A stretch of 64,000 bases of DNA from a virus (Duplodnaviria; Heunggongvirae; Uroviricota; Caudoviricetes): IMG/VR virus record IMGVR_UViG_3300017938_000005; one strand, 5' to 3'. Each line of letters starts with the position of its first letter. Positions within the stretch are counted from its first letter, which is position 1. Under the pieces are notes generated by a model. The model was not told where the DNA came from. It saw only the letters and a list, made by a program, of their open reading frames with translations, and did not search any database. Positions 8,307 to 51,200 of the stretch are shown here, one piece after another. Both the position numbers and the translations under genes were made by a program.

Positions 8307-8479
8307 GAGGATATGCTGCCGAAAGTGGCAACGATGGCCTGTCCCATCGTGCGAGATTTTCCCGGCTTGAGAACATGAAGGGTTCCCGACCAGGAGAAAA
8401 GAACGAGCTTCTTCGGCCATCGCTTCGCGAGCTTCTCGAGTTCCGAGATCGCGCGCTTCTCTCGAGCCGTGAGCTTCAC
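8303..8479 (-). CDS. hypothetical protein
   Basis: GTGA-coupled start. Confidence 0.55.
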   Translation of the reverse strand: MKLTAREKRAISELEKLAKRWPKKLVLFSWSGTLHVLKPGKSRTMGQAIVATFGSISS

Positions 8480-8706
8480 TCGTCGTCCTCCCCGACCAAG
8501 ATGTCCTCTACCTCGCTGAAGAACTGATGCGCGTTCACGCCGTCGATCGTGCCGTCGCGATACTGGAGATTCTTCACCCATTCGATCTTCGCGCGGACGA
8601 GTCGGTAGTCCGACACGAGCCTCATCACGGCTTGACGGTCTCCCGTGAGGGCGTCCTTCTCGAGTTCATGCGTCCGGCTTTCGTTCGATTCGCTCATCGC
8701 ATTCAC
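8476..8706 (-). CDS. hypothetical protein
   Basis: Track ORF, coupled. Confidence 0.65.
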   Translation of the reverse strand: MNAMSESNESRTHELEKDALTGDRQAVMRLVSDYRLVRAKIEWVKNLQYRDGTIDGVNAHQFFSEVEDILVGEDDE

Positions 8707-42927: not shown

Positions 42928-43196
42928 CGGACCGCCCTTCCGTTCTTCGCTTTCTTCTTTCTAGCCTCGGCCCTGAGTCTTTTCTGCTCATCCTTCAAGG
43001 CGAACTCGAGATTCGAGATCAACGTCGCAGCGAGCGGCCCAAGCTCGCCGCGACGGCCGCGCGTGAGTCGTTTGAAGTCACGCACCAAGGACCACGCGTC
43101 CTCTTTGCGGTGGCGCGCGAGCCAGAGCACCTCGTCCGCCACCGTCTTGACCTCGTTCGTCACCATCTTGAAAGACATCTTCCGCGAACGAGTCAT
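42924..43196 (-). CDS. hypothetical protein
   Basis: Track ORF, coupled. Confidence 0.65.
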   Translation of the reverse strand: MTRSRKMSFKMVTNEVKTVADEVLWLARHRKEDAWSLVRDFKRLTRGRRGELGPLAATLISNLEFALKDEQKRLRAEARKKKAKNGRAVR

Positions 43197-43480
43197 CCGC
43201 CAAACCCTGGGTCGATCTCGTCATACGAGGCCAAGCCTCCGACGTCATTGGCATCCTCATGAGAATCGCTCTCGGGATACCCCTCACCACCCATGCCGTC
43301 CGATGAAACGAGCACCTTCTCGGTCGTTTGTTTCACCGCCGACGTTTTCGACGATTTCGACGATTTCTTTGTCATCTTCTTCGCCGACTTCTTCACCGAC
43401 TTCTTCAACGCCTTCTTCGGTGCAGCCTTCGACTTGACTTTCTGAGCCTTCTTCGCAGCCTTCTTCTTTGCCTTCGTCAT
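43193..43480 (-). CDS. Lys/Ala-rich histone-H1-like protein with acidic C-terminus
   Basis: MTKAKKKAAKKAQKVKSKAAPKKALKKSVKKSAKK.. Confidence 0.7.
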   Translation of the reverse strand: MTKAKKKAAKKAQKVKSKAAPKKALKKSVKKSAKKMTKKSSKSSKTSAVKQTTEKVLVSSDGMGGEGYPESDSHEDANDVGGLASYDEIDPGFGG

Positions 43481-43488
43481 GACTCACC

Positions 43489-43776
43489 TCACCTCGGTTT
43501 GCGTTTCGCGGGCGGCTCGACGCCCTCCTTGAAGGTCACGTTCGGGAGAAGCTCCCATCCATCGCGTGAACCCTCGAACTCGGGGTTACCGGGAATCCAC
43601 TCCCAGACGCGGCCCACGCCGTCGAGACCGTAGAGCGCCTCGGAAGGGAACCCCTCGTCGCCCATCGTCATCGCCGTCACGATCTGCGTGAACGGCGGCA
43701 CGATCTCCTCGGGCGAGAGCGGCCCCTCGTCCTTCGTTTCGCTTTTCTTCATCTCCACCACGTTGTCCGTCGTCAT
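43489..43776 (-). CDS. hypothetical protein
   Basis: Track ORF. Confidence 0.7.
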   Translation of the reverse strand: MTTDNVVEMKKSETKDEGPLSPEEIVPPFTQIVTAMTMGDEGFPSEALYGLDGVGRVWEWIPGNPEFEGSRDGWELLPNVTFKEGVEPPAKRKPR

Positions 43777-46883: not shown

Positions 46884-47432
46884 TCAGGAAGCCGTCTCGA
46901 CCTGGAACTTCTCCTCGGGGGCCATGCCGCCGCCCGCCGCGTCGCTCGTGTCCTCTTCCTCGTGGACCTCGACGTGGCGAACCGCGCCGTTCGACATCTG
47001 GATCTTGAGTTCCAGCATCGAGCGGCCCTTGCCGATCGGGCGGCGCGCACCCGGGTGGGTGATGTACGCCTTGAAGCCCGCCTTGTTCGGCCACATGCCT
47101 TCGAGCTGCTTCCACTCGGGGACACCGATGGTCGTGCCCTTGGGCGCCTTGACGATGTCGCCCTTCGCGCCCTTGAGCTTCTCCGAGCCGCCGTTCTTGA
47201 CGAACTCGCAGTCCTCGAGCAGCTCGAAGACGAGCGAGTTCGACTGGAGCTTGTCGCTCCGGTCCTTGTTGATGAAGTTCACGAGGATGCCCTTCATCAC
47301 GTACGTGCCGGCTTCCTCGGGCGGGCTCCACCATCCGTCGACGCTGCCGCCGAACTTGCCCGTCCACTCGCTCATTCCTTCTTCCGCGGCCGGCGCCTGC
47401 GCCGGTGCGTTCTTCACGTTGTCTTTGGCCAT
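46884..47432 (-). CDS. putative ssDNA-binding protein (beta-rich core, acidic tail)
   Basis: Beta-strand-rich core, acidic EEEDTSD tail, own terminator, helicase neighbourhood; function inferred. Confidence 0.6.
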   Translation of the reverse strand: MAKDNVKNAPAQAPAAEEGMSEWTGKFGGSVDGWWSPPEEAGTYVMKGILVNFINKDRSDKLQSNSLVFELLEDCEFVKNGGSEKLKGAKGDIVKAPKGTTIGVPEWKQLEGMWPNKAGFKAYITHPGARRPIGKGRSMLELKIQMSNGAVRHVEVHEEEDTSDAAGGGMAPEEKFQVETAS

Positions 47433-47455
47433 AGCAATTGCTCCTGTTGTTTTTT

Positions 47456-47483
47456 CCACGAACCACGAACCACGAACCACGAA
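47456..47483. repeat. 7-bp tandem repeat (CCACGAA)4
   Basis: Read directly in 5' UTR of 47432 gene. Confidence 0.95.
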
Positions 47484-47526
47484 CCCACCCCGGCACAAAA
47501 GTGCCAAGGCAGAACTTTAGGAATCT

Positions 47527-47738
47527 AAAAAATCCGGGAAGCGGAAGGCTTCCGATCAAACGAGCGCGAGAGCTTTGTTCACCGCTCTACGCTTCACCCT
47601 TGAATCCTCGAAGCTCATCGCTGCCACTGTCTGAGCGCTGACCGCGGGTGTCCGTACCGAATAGGCGAGGGAAGGCTTGCGCCGTCCTGAATTGATGCTC
47701 CTATCGCCCGTCCTCTCTTCCACCTTCCGCCCCCGGAA
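47527..47738 (-). ncRNA. putative structured ncRNA downstream of coiled-coil gene
   Basis: About 15-bp closing stem (47723-47737 with 47533-47548) followed by U6, inner hairpin (47663-47709), AG-periodic 7-nt tract; no ORF. Confidence 0.6.
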
Positions 47739-47754
47739 CTTGCCACCGCCTCCC

Positions 47755-48267
47755 TCACACGGGCGTGCGGTGATTCATCGTCTCCACGAGGTCGTTCAGC
47801 TCGGCGAACTTCGCCTGGAGCGCCGCGACCCTCTCGGCCCTCTTCGCCTCGGGCAAGTGGCACGTGTACTCCACCTCCACGCTCACGTTGTCCGCGAGCT
47901 TCGAGTTCCACACGCTCTCCTCCTCGACCGTCTTGTCCTGCGCGCGGACGGGCAGGGCCTCGTGCCACGCGATGGCGCCCTTCAGCTCCGCGAGCCTCTT
48001 CGTGCACCAGGTGAGCGGCCTCGACTTGCCCTCAAAGTCGACGGTCGCCTTCGTGTTCGCGACGGCCACGCGCGTCTGGAGATCGATCATCTCCGAGACG
48101 AACTGCTGCGAAAGCTCCAGCTCCGTGGAGAAGACGTACGCGGGCACGCTCTTCGTCTTGTGCGTCACGCTCGACTGGGCGTTCTGCGCGTGCTTCGCGA
48201 TCTTGCCCTTGATGTCTTTGATGCGCCGAAGCGCCTGCGCGATCGTCAGTTCTCTGATCTCACCCAT
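47755..48267 (-). CDS. all-helical coiled-coil protein (DIP1984/DUF6847-like, tentative)
   Basis: LTIAQALRRIKDIKGKI start and LNDLVETMNHRTPV end; family assignment from memory. Confidence 0.8.
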   Translation of the reverse strand: MGEIRELTIAQALRRIKDIKGKIAKHAQNAQSSVTHKTKSVPAYVFSTELELSQQFVSEMIDLQTRVAVANTKATVDFEGKSRPLTWCTKRLAELKGAIAWHEALPVRAQDKTVEEESVWNSKLADNVSVEVEYTCHLPEAKRAERVAALQAKFAELNDLVETMNHRTPV

Positions 48268-48452
48268 CGGGCACACCTTTCCCCGTGAGCCGCCCCGCCG
48301 GCACCCCGGCGTTCGGACGGACATCTTCCTTCGGAGGACAGTCTCACGAGGGAACGCTCGTTCGACCTTCTCCTTCAGGTTGCCGGCTTCCAGGCACCTA
48401 GCCCTGGCGTCAGCTCGTCGAGTCGCCTCGACTCGGGATGCAATAGTGGGCT

Positions 48453-48600
48453 GCGACCGGGACGGTCAACCGAAAAAATCGAGCGGCATGACGCGGCAAT
48501 GATGCATGAGCGCGATCAGAAATGTACTTGCCGAAAGTTGCGCTCGGAAAGTTGATGTGACACTTCGACGTACGATTTTTCTCCGTCGCAGTCCGGTCGC
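48453..48600 (-). ncRNA. putative structured ncRNA upstream of coiled-coil gene
   Basis: Three-segment stem GCGACCGG/CCGGTCGC, GACGG/CCGTC, GAAAAAATCG/CGATTTTTC enclosing a 14-nt-periodic tract. Confidence 0.55.
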
Positions 48601-48608
48601 GACCCGGA

Positions 48609-49430
48609 TCAGCGCACGTTCGAAATCAGAACCTCGCCGACCTTCACACGCGACGCTTTTTTCGCGGCGATCGCGTGCGTCACCGAGACGCTCTCGATCC
48701 CGAACTCTTTGTAGAGTGCACGGATCGTTTCGCTGTCGCCCTGGCTCGCGATGAACTTCGCGCCGCGACGGTCTGCCGTCACGAGCGCCGCTGCGAGCCG
48801 CTCGTGCTCTTTCAGCGCGAAGCGATCCGCCGTGTACGAGGTGAAGTCGGCGGTCTTCGAGCGCGGCAGGTACGGCGGGTCCACGTAGATGAAGTCGCCC
48901 CTCTTCGCGGCGAGGATGCGCGGCTCGAAGTCCTCGGAGCGGAGCGTCACGCCCGCGAGTGCCGCGTGCCATGCGGCGACGACGTCGGGCTCCACGATGA
49001 CCGGGTTCTTGTAGTCTCCGATGGGGACGTTGAAGTGCCCGGCGCGATTCACGCGATAGAGGCCGTTAAAACAGGTTTTATTGAGGTAACAAAAACGCAC
49101 AGCGCGCGCGAGCGGCTCCGTTTCTTCCTTGGCCCTCACCTTGTAGTACGTCTCCTTCGAGTGCTTGATCTCGAGGAGCTTCTTCACGAAGTCCGTGGCC
49201 CCGTCCTGCACCACCGCGTACGCGTTCATCAGCTCCGCGTTCACGTCGTTCAGGACTGCATAGCCCACCTGGTGCGCACGCGAGAGCTTGCCGGCCGCAT
49301 GGAGCGCCATGAACACGGCGCCGCCGCCAACGAAAGGCTCGTGATACGAGCCCTCGAACACGGGAACGCGCGCGAGGATGGTCGGCACGAGCTTCGTCTT
49401 ACCGCCGGCCCATTTAAGAAAAGGCTTCAT
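48609..49430 (-). CDS. dam: Dam-family (D12 class) N6-adenine DNA methyltransferase
   Basis: PFLKWAGGK, YHEPFVGGGAV, NKTCFNGLYRVN..GHFNVPIG, YVDPPY. Confidence 0.93.
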   Translation of the reverse strand: MKPFLKWAGGKTKLVPTILARVPVFEGSYHEPFVGGGAVFMALHAAGKLSRAHQVGYAVLNDVNAELMNAYAVVQDGATDFVKKLLEIKHSKETYYKVRAKEETEPLARAVRFCYLNKTCFNGLYRVNRAGHFNVPIGDYKNPVIVEPDVVAAWHAALAGVTLRSEDFEPRILAAKRGDFIYVDPPYLPRSKTADFTSYTADRFALKEHERLAAALVTADRRGAKFIASQGDSETIRALYKEFGIESVSVTHAIAAKKASRVKVGEVLISNVR

Positions 49431-49759
49431 TCCTGCTCCACGGCTCGCGCTGTCCCGTCGTCTACCATCTTCCGGAGCCCGCGCTCGAACTCCGAGCGGA
49501 CGCGCTCCGCGACGCTCGAGAAGCTCGCATCCACCCGCCCGCACGCGAAAGCTGCGATGGAGATCCACTCGCCGGCGAGCCAGAACACGATGGCCTGCCT
49601 CTCGCGCTCGTCCGGATCGCGGCCTACCCTCGCCTTGAAATCGTCGAAGAGAGAACGCAGCTCGCTTTTGAAAGCGTGGCTGGGATCCGACTGCCTCGCC
49701 TTCATGAGCATGTCAATCTCCGAAAGCGCACCCGAATCCGCGTTCATCTGCGCGCTCAC
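49427..49759 (-). CDS. hypothetical protein
   Basis: GTGA-coupled start. Confidence 0.55.
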   Translation of the reverse strand: MSAQMNADSGALSEIDMLMKARQSDPSHAFKSELRSLFDDFKARVGRDPDERERQAIVFWLAGEWISIAAFACGRVDASFSSVAERVRSEFERGLRKMVDDGTARAVEQE

Positions 49760-50330: not shown

Positions 50331-51200
50331 TCACTCCTTCTCTCCGTTACCGTTACCGTTCCCATTTCCGTTCCTGCTACCGAGGCTGTCGTTGTAGGCG
50401 ACGATGGCCTCATAGGCGTCGTTGATGGCCTGGAACGCTTCGACCCCGCTGTCGTCGCCGATCACGTCCGGATGAATCTTCCTCAGCGCCGCGCGCTGGT
50501 TCTTCCGTGCACGGGCCTGGTCCGCGGGCCTGCCCCACACCGGCCTCGGGATCCCGAGTAAGTCGCACGCGTTCCTCAGACCGCTCTTGTCGGGCGGCTG
50601 GTTCGAGAAACGGTTCGAGAACGTCGTGAGGAGCAGCTCGACCTCGCGCATCGCCTCCATGGCCCACGCCGCAGCGCGCTCGTCGTTCTTCGGCAAACGC
50701 GAGGCGATCCAAGCAGCGATGGCCTCACGCACGATCGTCTTGTGGCGTCCAGACGGGGTCTTCTTGGCCGACTCCTCGCCGCTCGCGATGCGCTTCGAGC
50801 GCCCGAAGGTCGACGAGGCCCGGTACACCTTGCCAGCCGCCGTTGTCCGGATGTGGCCCTCGCTGTCGTACCGGATGAGCCGTTCACGGATGACGTCGTC
50901 CTGGGTCACGCCTTCGCCTTTGCCGTTCTTCTCACGCCAGACGCGCGCGCACTCGGCGAAAAGCGTGACGGCCGTCACGAGCGGCATCCCATCCTCGACA
51001 CGCGCCCAGAAGATGTCCGCAGCATCGCCTGCTGCGAGGAGCCGGCAGCGATGCCGCACGTTGTTCACCATCACGTCCGGATGACGCATGTGGATGAAAG
51101 CCCCGATACCCGCCTTTCCGCACGCCTTACGCTCCTCCGGCTTCGCCGCGTCGTACTCCTTGCGCTCGGCGAGCGCGAGCTTCTTCATCGGCGTCATCAT
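50331..51200 (-). CDS. C-terminal J-domain (DnaJ-type, HPD motif) protein
   Basis: ACDLLGI..ALRKIHPDV..EAFQAINDAYEAI. Confidence 0.82.
   Translation of the reverse strand: MMTPMKKLALAERKEYDAAKPEERKACGKAGIGAFIHMRHPDVMVNNVRHRCRLLAAGDAADIFWARVEDGMPLVTAVTLFAECARVWREKNGKGEGVTQDDVIRERLIRYDSEGHIRTTAAGKVYRASSTFGRSKRIASGEESAKKTPSGRHKTIVREAIAAWIASRLPKNDERAAAWAMEAMREVELLLTTFSNRFSNQPPDKSGLRNACDLLGIPRPVWGRPADQARARKNQRAALRKIHPDVIGDDSGVEAFQAINDAYEAIVAYNDSLGSRNGNGNGNGNGEKE

What the first reader, a model, noticed from the sequence alone, without database searches (positions are those of the whole stretch)
47527..48608. Candidate protein-RNA system: coiled-coil gene bracketed by two stem-closed, 7/14-nt-periodic non-coding elements
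Seen: in a window that otherwise has almost no intergenic space, a 170-aa all-helical gene (47755-48267) has about 340 nt of non-coding DNA upstream and about 320 nt downstream. On each side a long-range inverted repeat closes a 90-175 nt interior with 7- or 14-nt periodicity. Inference: a ribonucleoprotein module in which the protein (tentatively DIP1984/DUF6847-like) oligomerises on RNA heptads. My recollection that genes of this type are followed by similar heptad-rich tracts in other bacteria is unverified.
Basis: partly seen in the sequence, partly recalled or inferred. Interest (0 to 1): 0.85.

Follow-up and report, generated by a model that had tools for sequence, protein, structure and literature searches.

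The report
Heptad-rail RNA behind DIP1984-like gene
Directly after a small phage gene of unknown function lies a conserved, folded non-coding RNA of about 208 bases that displays nine or ten evenly spaced UNAGC units; the same gene-plus-RNA pair recurs in about ninety uncultured phage loci and matches no catalogued RNA family, so it is probably an undescribed RNA-protein partnership, while the gap in front of the gene is just its promoter and leader.

Summary
The downstream half of the finding is real. Window 47532-47739 (- strand) is a structured RNA. A 16-bp closing stem holds a second helix, a hairpin and a single-stranded rail of 9-10 heptads (consensus nnUnAGC), and a U-tract follows.

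A covariance model built from 15 relatives finds one copy per locus in 86 of 91 sources. Each copy lies on the gene strand, downstream of the homologous gene. The closing stem covaries (90% of cells paired, against 38-47% when the partner is slid). Rfam has no match.

The 170-aa protein has the fold of PDB 3kdq (C. diphtheriae, function unknown). It is a distant relative of DIP1984/DUF6847, below the curated cut-offs, and is predicted to form a symmetric homodimer.

The upstream half is not a second RNA element. Its long-range stem is no better than chance and is not conserved. That gap holds a conserved promoter-plus-leader cassette.

In distant relatives the pair sits beside RNase P RNA, tRNA clusters, tmRNA and a CCA-adding enzyme.

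This scan has already noted the same gene-RNA pair on other DNA. I found no publication on it.

The parts
48386..48481 (-). Promoter-plus-leader cassette, conserved and single-copy. It has a T-rich tract, a -35 TTGACC (48464-48469), a 17-nt spacer and a -10-like CTATTG (48441-48446). These are followed by a leader hairpin (about 48416-48438) and a second hairpin with a GCUAGGUG loop (48390-48407).
   Evidence: Three-way alignment. An nhmmer profile finds it once in the whole window (E = 1e-15) and once in each of 13 relative loci. In those it lies either directly before the DIP1984-like gene or before methylase-(165-183 aa)-gene. The motif is unique in the window. The generic sigma-70 scan does not call it.
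48268..48385 (-). Remaining 5' leader and ribosome-binding region of the gene (inferred).
   Evidence: Non-coding by GC3. It lies between the cassette and the start codon shared with homologues.
47755..48267 (-). 170-aa gene with the DIP1984 (PDB 3kdq) fold: four helices plus two beta-hairpins. Conserved basic N-terminal helix (TIAQALRRIKxxKGK) and C-terminal LNDxVExxNHRT.
   Evidence: 44 homologues. 475 clusters at 50% identity with E <= 1e-3. Alignment A1. AlphaFold pLDDT 91.6. Best PDB hit 3kdq. NF038048 E = 0.057, below the cut-off. Homodimer model score 0.76 against a best control of 0.00.
47532..47739 (-). Heptad-rail non-coding RNA, about 208 nt, beginning 16 nt after the stop codon.
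   Evidence: R1 covariance model 139 bits, E = 3e-38, the only hit in the 64-kb window. MFE -91 kcal/mol, z = -3.0. No Rfam match.
47722..47737 (-). P1, 5' arm of the closing stem.
   Evidence: Covariation across relatives.
47533..47549 (-). P1, 3' arm of the closing stem. A U6 tract follows at 47527-47532, giving a terminator-like 3' end.
   Evidence: (terminator-like site). T-runs follow the 3' arm in many relatives.
47697..47713 (-). P2, purine-rich 5' strand. It pairs with 47558-47573.
   Evidence: MFE fold. The equivalent helix 4 of the model has 5 of 6 pairs with double changes.
47558..47573 (-). P2, 3' strand.
47670..47687 (-). Internal hairpin in a variable region. Relatives carry one or two hairpins here.
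47577..47645 (-). Single-stranded rail. It begins GCGGUCAGC-GCUCAGAC and continues with about 7 more heptads. The later units are degenerate here (AGG, AAG, AAC).
   Evidence: Family consensus from 80 distinct sequences: A 93-100%, G 80-100%, C 47-94%, U two bases before the A 63-100%, spacer positions <= 56%.

Best explanation
The gene and the stretch behind it form one transcription unit.

Transcription (inferred): a conserved promoter in the upstream gap (-35 TTGACC, 17 nt, CTATTG) starts an mRNA with a leader of about 165 nt. The mRNA encodes the 170-aa DIP1984-fold protein and continues straight into a 208-nt structured RNA. Transcription probably ends at the U-tract that follows the RNA's closing stem.

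The RNA (shown): a 16-bp clamp (P1) and a second helix (P2) hold open a rail of nine or ten single-stranded heptads, each presenting U-N-A-G-C.

Function (inferred, my best guess): the rail is an assembly platform on which several copies of one protein bind side by side, one AGC per binding site. This is how HutP and TRAP read spaced triplets. The most likely protein is the homodimer encoded immediately upstream. The resulting particle probably acts on RNA metabolism, because distant relatives of the pair sit among RNase P RNA, tRNAs, tmRNA and a CCA-adding enzyme.

The upstream gap is not a second RNA element.
For: The RNA is real and specific:
- The R1 model finds one hit per locus in 86 of 91 sources. 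All hits are on the gene strand, downstream of the gene and usually directly behind it, and none lies elsewhere in 475 kb. L117 and L118 also carry it.
- 90.3% of structure cells are paired, against 38-47% when partners are slid. 21 of 24 pairs show double changes and 0 of 500 shuffles reach the observed values.
- The closing stem beats all 20 shuffles in 48 of 73 non-redundant loci, although the arm sequences differ.

It is RNA of the gene strand:
- G-U pairs are common in P1 and P2, while non-standard pairs are rare in P1 and a minority in P2.
- A T-run follows the 3' arm.

The rail:
- Exact 7-nt-spaced runs of up to 7 units occur in nearly all loci, with p about 0.
- A, G and C of each unit are conserved and the spacers are free.

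The protein:
- Fold of 3kdq.
- Predicted symmetric self-association: score 0.76, best of 3 controls 0.00; this mark was reached by 20 of 30 proteins solved as pairs of one chain and by 1 of 23 solved as single chains. The counts hold only roughly because four copies and my own alignment were used. Runs agree in >= 95% of contacts and partner pLDDT is >= 87. 3kdq may be remembered by the model.
- The invariant residues include R14 and K20, and K17 and H166 are nearly invariant, on the N- and C-terminal helices.

The promoter cassette is conserved and always lies upstream of the operon.

Context:
- RNase P RNA lies directly behind the RNA in 9 of 31 loci scanned with Rfam.
- 23 tRNAs in L117; tmRNA plus PolyA_pol/HD in L118.
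Against: - No experiment or RNA-seq shows a transcript.
- Protein-RNA binding rests on adjacency alone.
- The predicted oligomer is a dimer, not a ring or filament.
- The window's own rail is degenerate in its second half.
- A true DIP1984 gene on plasmid pMMA2 has no such RNA behind it, so the pairing is not a property of the whole superfamily.
- The -10 element is poor and the generic sigma-70 scan finds no promoter.
- This window has no tRNA, RNase P or tmRNA genes. Here the pair sits among DNA-metabolism genes.
Confidence: 0.6

Rival explanations
1. The RNA is real, but the neighbouring protein is not its ligand. The rail would be read by a host factor or another phage factor (a decoy or sponge). 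Alternatively the element is a cis-acting 3' UTR that stabilises, terminates or autoregulates the mRNA. The gene linkage would then reflect only co-transcription.
For: - The RNA begins 16 nt after the stop codon and ends in a stem plus U-tract, like a 3'-UTR terminator module.
- No binding data exist.
- The predicted protein oligomer is only a dimer.
- pMMA2's DIP1984 gene lacks the RNA.
Against: - The pairing holds over about 90 loci, from 28 to 95% protein identity and from 30 to 67% GC, while every other neighbour changes.
- A plain terminator or stabiliser does not need 9-10 conserved phased AGC units.
Confidence: 0.22
2. One reading: two like RNA elements bracket the gene, and both are bound by the protein.
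For: - An inverted repeat of 13-15 nt exists upstream (I8/I9).
- The MFE fold of the upstream gap uses it.
Against: - The upstream stem is no better than shuffles (9 of 40) and is not conserved in L024 or L028. The fold has z = -1.5.
- One arm of the stem lies in the promoter spacer, so the transcript that starts there would not contain it.
- R1 has no hit upstream.
- In L025 and L027 a protein gene fills that space.
Confidence: 0.04
3. A DNA-level element: iterons or a protein-binding repeat array in double-stranded DNA (origin, partition or packaging site), or merely a heptamer microsatellite.
For: - Heptamer tandem arrays are common in phage contigs.
- The window has one such array at 47456-47485.
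Against: - The rail units differ from one another in sequence, unlike slippage repeats.
- Long-range stems covary and include many G-U pairs, which would be mismatches on the other strand or in a cruciform.
- The orientation is always that of the gene.
Confidence: 0.04

Closest known systems
HutP with the hut terminator RNA of Bacillus subtilis (PMC2425495)
   Same: The protein reads XAG triplets repeated with 4-nt spacers, that is a 7-nt period, in single-stranded RNA. The spacers are sequence-independent and several protomers bind one RNA. The rail here has the same period and an A-G core.
   Different: - HutP is a hexamer with a different fold. No HutP family hit appears for this protein.
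- HutP sites are 2 x 3 units in a 5' leader that controls termination. Here there are 9-10 units clamped by long helices in a 3' element, with an extra conserved C and an upstream U.
- Binding here is not shown.
TRAP (MtrB) with the trp leader (established knowledge, not tested here)
   Same: A multimeric protein binds many phased (G/U)AG triplets in single-stranded RNA.
   Different: TRAP is an 11-mer beta-ring and its spacing is 2-3 nt rather than 4. It acts as an attenuator in a 5' leader and is unrelated in sequence and fold.
DIP1984 family / DUF6847 ('septicolysin' in annotations), PDB 3kdq
   Same: Same fold (TM 0.75 by query, 0.83 by target). There are full-length weak HMM matches. The CPR-MAG relative L111 passes the Pfam PF20935 cut-off (31.3 bits against 27).
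   Different: - The window protein is far below the curated cut-offs (13.6 bits against 70; no Pfam hit).
- The family has no known function. The 'cytolysin' name is unverified (PMC3358182 says the exact role is unknown).
- The pMMA2 member has no heptad RNA.
Ro60 (Rsr) with bacterial Y RNAs (PMC4201824, seen only as an abstract)
   Same: A small structured ncRNA is encoded next to its protein partner and linked to RNA quality control. Here the pair sits in tRNA, RNase P and tmRNA islands in distant relatives.
   Different: There is no Y RNA or any other Rfam match. The architecture has no tRNA-like module and the protein fold is different. RtcB is not adjacent in the 4 huge-phage records checked.

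Membership tests
DIP1984 family (NCBIfam NF038048) / DUF6847 (Pfam PF20935) | Score at or above the curated cut-off of the family model. | tested here: not met
   Window protein: NF038048 13.6 bits against a cut-off of 70, E = 0.057. No PF20935 hit at E <= 0.1. Relatives score higher: P0039 38.8 bits, and L111 gets PF20935 31.3 against 27.
DIP1984 family (NCBIfam NF038048) / DUF6847 (Pfam PF20935) | Fold of the solved member (3kdq): helical bundle with beta-hairpins, matched over the full length. | tested here: met
   Foldseek best PDB hit 3kdq_C: TMq 0.75, TMt 0.83, 166 columns, probability 1.00. AFDB clusters include an entry named 'Septicolysin'.
Any Rfam 15 RNA family | A covariance-model match. 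| tested here: not met
   Nothing overlaps the element at E <= 10 in the window, and there is no gathering-level hit in the whole window. No match falls on the element in 31 relative loci.
HutP/TRAP-type phased-triplet RNA recognition | Phased conserved triplets with free spacers in single-stranded RNA. | tested here: met
   Column conservation: A 93-100%, G 80-100%, C 47-94%, spacers <= 56%, period 7. The rail is not part of any covarying helix.
HutP/TRAP-type phased-triplet RNA recognition | A ring-shaped multimer whose protomers each bind one triplet. | tested here: inconclusive
   Only a symmetric dimer interface is predicted among four copies. No RNA-protein modelling or assay was possible.
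HutP/TRAP-type phased-triplet RNA recognition | Protein homologous to HutP or MtrB. | tested here: not met
   No such Pfam or NCBIfam hit. The fold search gives 3kdq only.
Intrinsic terminator at the 3' end of the RNA | A G+C-rich stem followed directly by a U-run. | tested here: met
   The scan calls the stem at 47553-47537 with tail CGGAUUUUUU. P1 is followed by U6 at 47527-47532, and T-runs follow P1 in many relatives. Function was not tested.
Sigma-70-type promoter in the upstream gap | -35 and -10 hexamers with 16-18 nt spacing. | tested here: inconclusive
   TTGACC, 17 nt, CTATTG is conserved in 10+ relatives, but the -10 is weak and the generic scan finds no site.

The most novel reading that the evidence does not exclude
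The DIP1984-fold protein and the heptad-rail RNA form a previously unknown ribonucleoprotein. Dimers would line up on nine or ten phased UNAGC units held open by an RNA clamp. Large phages (and sporadically CPR bacteria) would carry the particle as part of their own RNA-processing toolkit, alongside RNase P RNA, tRNAs, tmRNA and a CCA-adding enzyme. This would give a first function to the DIP1984/DUF6847/'septicolysin' fold as an RNA-binding module.
Probability: 0.45. Interest if true: 0.85.

Novelty: categorically new. Interest (0 to 1): 0.8.

Why it matters
If the pairing is functional, it defines a new class of structured RNA and the first clue to a protein fold that has had a crystal structure (3kdq) since 2009 but no function. 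On Acinetobacter resistance plasmids that fold is annotated as a 'cytolysin' without evidence.

The RNA architecture, a clamp that presents a long phased single-stranded rail, is unusual. It predicts a specific and easily tested binding mode. Its recurrent placement beside phage-encoded RNase P RNA, tRNAs and tmRNA suggests that giant phages carry one more RNA-handling component than is known.

The family is large: 475 protein clusters at 50% identity.

Tried and rejected
- Rfam at permissive thresholds on the window and on 31 relatives found nothing on the element.
- tblastn of the window protein and of P0039 against the phage and plasmid collections gave no match.
- Phage T5, a lead from earlier notes: no hit to NF038048 or to R1. 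T5.085 (212 aa) is followed by a 363-nt gap with AAG/AAA units at about 7-8 nt spacing. However, hhalign against A1 gives only 7.7% probability, so I could not confirm the relationship.
- RtcB adjacency, another lead from earlier notes: RtcB is present in 1 of 4 huge-phage records and lies about 270 kb from the gene there.
- Reverse search for the RNA without the gene:
  - A strict start-of-rail pattern returned only a known locus.
  - A five-heptad AGC pattern returned more than 119 loci. These are perfect heptamer microsatellites with no A1-type gene, shown by hmmsearch of the six-frame ORFs of these loci and by 7 records searched, 5 of them 96-100% complete by CheckV.
  - Two scrambled control patterns saturated equally. 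This test is therefore uninformative about linkage.
- A search for remnants of the extra genes that relatives carry in the two gaps found none.
- A sample of 301 genomes of the phylum of MAG G003 held only the two carriers already known. The pair is therefore sporadic there, consistent with mobile or phage DNA.
- My GC3-based attempt to measure intergenic space over the whole window was too crude to use.

Full report
**What is at the coordinates**

All genes in this part of the window run on the minus strand. Their content is phage-like:
- a D12 adenine methylase (48609-49568 as an ORF);
- the 170-aa gene (47755-48267);
- a 183-aa gene (46884-47435);
- a nucleoside deoxyribosyltransferase-like gene;
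- a MazG-like pyrophosphatase;
- an SNF2 helicase.

No whole genome is held for the window.

GC at third codon positions is 0.9-1.0 inside the genes. It collapses to 0.5-0.65 in all three phases over about 48300-48560 and 47440-47720.

**The protein**

- It has 44 full-length homologues in the word-indexed search.
- A profile search of 1.84 billion representatives finds 475 clusters with E <= 1e-3. All are metagenomic, and many lie on contigs of 200-600 kb.
- Pfam gives nothing for the window protein. NCBIfam's DIP1984 model matches it over its whole length but weakly (E = 0.057). It matches relatives better: P0039 at 9e-10.
- An AlphaFold model built on the alignment is confident (pLDDT 91.6). 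It shows four long helices and two beta-hairpins.
- The best solved match is 3kdq, an uncharacterised C. diphtheriae protein, with TM 0.75/0.83.
- The tentative DIP1984/DUF6847 label is therefore right at the level of fold and superfamily. The protein fails the curated family cut-offs.
- A four-copy complex prediction supports a symmetric self-interface through helices 2 and 3 and the second hairpin. The score is 0.76 and the best of three controls 0.00. This mark was reached by 20 of 30 proteins solved as pairs of one chain and by 1 of 23 solved as single chains. The runs agree in at least 95% of contacts and partner pLDDT is at least 87. The counts are rough for this set-up, and 3kdq may be remembered by the model.

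**The downstream element is a conserved structured RNA**

Synteny in close relatives shows that a gap of 263-285 nt always follows the gene, whatever comes next. Aligning these gaps shows two things: the long-range stem is conserved through compensating changes, and a conserved core begins GCGGUYAGC.

Over 111 loci fetched from viral, metagenome and GTDB collections:
- A script finds a closing stem just after the stop codon, with arms of quite different sequence. It beats all 20 shuffles in 48 of 73 non-redundant loci.
- Exact 7-nt-spaced runs of nnnnAGn units, up to 7 in a row, occur in nearly all loci with shuffle p about 0.

A covariance model built from 15 close relatives (A4, R1) gives these results:
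- One hit per locus in 86 of 91 sources.
- Every hit is on the gene strand, downstream of the gene and usually directly behind it.
- There are no hits elsewhere in 475 kb.
- It also finds the RNA in L117 and L118.
- The window's hit is 47532-47739 (139 bits) and is the only one in the 64 kb.

On the model's alignment:
- 90.3% of cells pair, against 38-47% when partners are slid by 1-3 columns.
- 21 of 24 pairs show changes on both sides.
- No shuffle of 500 reaches the observed values. The alignment is fitted to the model, so this leans towards the structure. The independent stem script agrees.
- G-U pairs are frequent. Non-standard pairs are rare in P1 and a minority in P2.
- T-runs follow the 3' arm in many loci, including U6 at 47527-47532 here.

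These features point to an RNA of the gene strand that ends at a terminator-like stem. The window element folds at -91 kcal/mol, z = -3.0. Rfam 15 has no match in the window or in 31 relatives. Literature searches for DIP1984, DUF6847, septicolysin and heptad ncRNA found no description.

**Anatomy in the window**

| Feature | Coordinates (minus strand) |
|---|---|
| P1 closing stem | 47722-47737 with 47533-47549 |
| P2 (purine-rich strand with pyrimidine-rich strand) | 47697-47713 with 47558-47573 |
| Internal hairpin | 47670-47687 |
| Short GGUAC-GGACAC direct repeat | from 47658 |
| Heptad rail | 47577-47645 |

The rail reads GGUCAGC, GCUCAGA, (3-nt skip) UGGCAGC, GAUGAGC, UUCGAGG, AUUCAAG, GGUGAAG, then two looser units. 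Across 80 distinct family members the A is 93-100% conserved, the G 80-100%, the C 47-94% and the U two bases before the A 63-100%. Spacer positions never exceed 56%. The window's copy is somewhat degenerate in its second half.

**The upstream gap is a promoter and leader, not a second element**

It has no counterpart in L024 or L028. The gap folds no better than shuffles (z = -1.5).
- What is conserved is a block of about 100 nt at 48386-48481. It holds a T-rich tract, TTGACC, 17 nt, CTATTG, a hairpin, and a second hairpin with a GCUAGGUG loop.
- A profile of this block hits once in the window and once per relative. In some relatives it lies directly before the gene. In others it lies before methylase-(165-183 aa gene)-gene (gene order).
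- It is therefore the operon's promoter cassette.
- The generic sigma-70 scan does not call the site. Promoter identity is therefore inferred from conservation and position.

**Context elsewhere**

- In distant relatives the gene-RNA pair is followed within about 50-250 nt by a class A RNase P RNA. This holds in 9 of 31 loci scanned with Rfam.
- L117 has 23 tRNAs within 5 kb. L118 has a PolyA_pol/HD (CCA-adding type) gene, a TrmB-like gene and a tmRNA.
- In this window there are no tRNA, tmRNA or RNase P genes.
- The pair also occurs on long contigs of a few Patescibacteria MAGs. The L111 protein passes the PF20935 cut-off.
- Only the 2 carriers already known turned up among 301 sampled genomes of that phylum. 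The pair is therefore sporadic there.

**Limits of the association**

- A bona fide DIP1984 gene on A. baumannii plasmid pMMA2 has no heptad rail in the 400 nt behind it.
- T5 gives no hit to the family model or to R1. The candidate T5.085 plus its 363-nt gap resembles the arrangement only loosely.
- RtcB is not adjacent in four huge-phage records.
- A pattern search meant to find the RNA without the gene picked up heptamer microsatellites instead. Two scrambled control patterns saturated equally.
- This explains the window's TTCGTGG x4.3 array (47456-47485) as an ordinary repeat type. It says nothing about linkage.

**Most likely mechanism**

Shown:
- a conserved, covarying, strand-specific structured element coupled to this gene family;
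- phased UNAGC units with free spacers;
- a DIP1984 fold for the protein.

Supported by a model only: self-association of the protein.

Inferred:
- co-transcription from the upstream cassette and termination at the U-tract after P1;
- the rail as a multi-site platform for the neighbouring protein, read in the manner of HutP (XAG with 4-nt spacers, PMC2425495) or TRAP;
- a role in RNA metabolism.

I put the whole reading at about 0.6. The existence of the RNA family I put at above 0.9. Binding by this particular protein I put at about 0.5.

**Earlier notes and verdict**

Earlier notes of this scan describe the same gene-RNA pair on other DNA. I re-derived the core claims independently. I could not confirm the T5 lead. 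The RtcB lead was not borne out in the records I checked, and the one plasmid DIP1984 gene I examined lacks the RNA.

This is an undescribed RNA family with a likely protein partner.

Noticed in passing
L005:4222-4565, L066:3314-3653, L062:2070-2545, L018:3914-4275, L008:3801-4291, L013:3814-4153, L009:3803-4132, L006:3983-4346, L017:3807-4145: Full-length bacterial class A RNase P RNA genes (254-308 bits) sit directly behind the heptad RNA on large phage-like contigs. One literature search found no clear description of phage-encoded RNase P RNA.
   Followed up: partly
window 47456-47485 (-): A perfect TTCGTGG x4.3 tandem array lies just 5' of the ribosome-binding site of gene 46884-47435, between that gene and the RNA's U-tract. 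Heptamer microsatellites of any sequence are common in IMG/VR. L045 carries four different heptamer arrays around its gene and RNA. Function unknown.
   Followed up: partly
window 48527-48556 (-): A direct repeat of CAACUUUC(C/G)G, 14 nt apart, lies about 60-85 nt upstream of the -35 element. It could be a regulator site. It is not obviously conserved in L024 or L028.
   Followed up: no
window 49431-49755: Homologous methylases are 272-276 aa, so the real start is probably the internal Met (MKPFLKWAGGK). That would leave another gap of about 325 nt between the 192-aa gene and the methylase.
   Followed up: no
window 50331-51200 (-): A 289-aa protein with a weak DnaJ-domain match ends in a GNGNGNGNGNG repeat.
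   Followed up: no
L118:2594-4852 and 8335-8691: A PolyA_pol/HD (CCA-adding type) gene and a TrmB-like gene lie upstream of the DIP1984-like gene, and a tmRNA lies 1.8 kb downstream. A TrmB-like gene also precedes the gene in L111.
   Followed up: partly
L116:23142-23504 (phage T5 record 43142-43504, - strand): A 363-nt gene-free stretch behind T5.085 (212 aa) holds AAG/AAA units spaced about 7-8 nt apart. It is not annotated among T5's stable RNAs in the record.
   Followed up: partly
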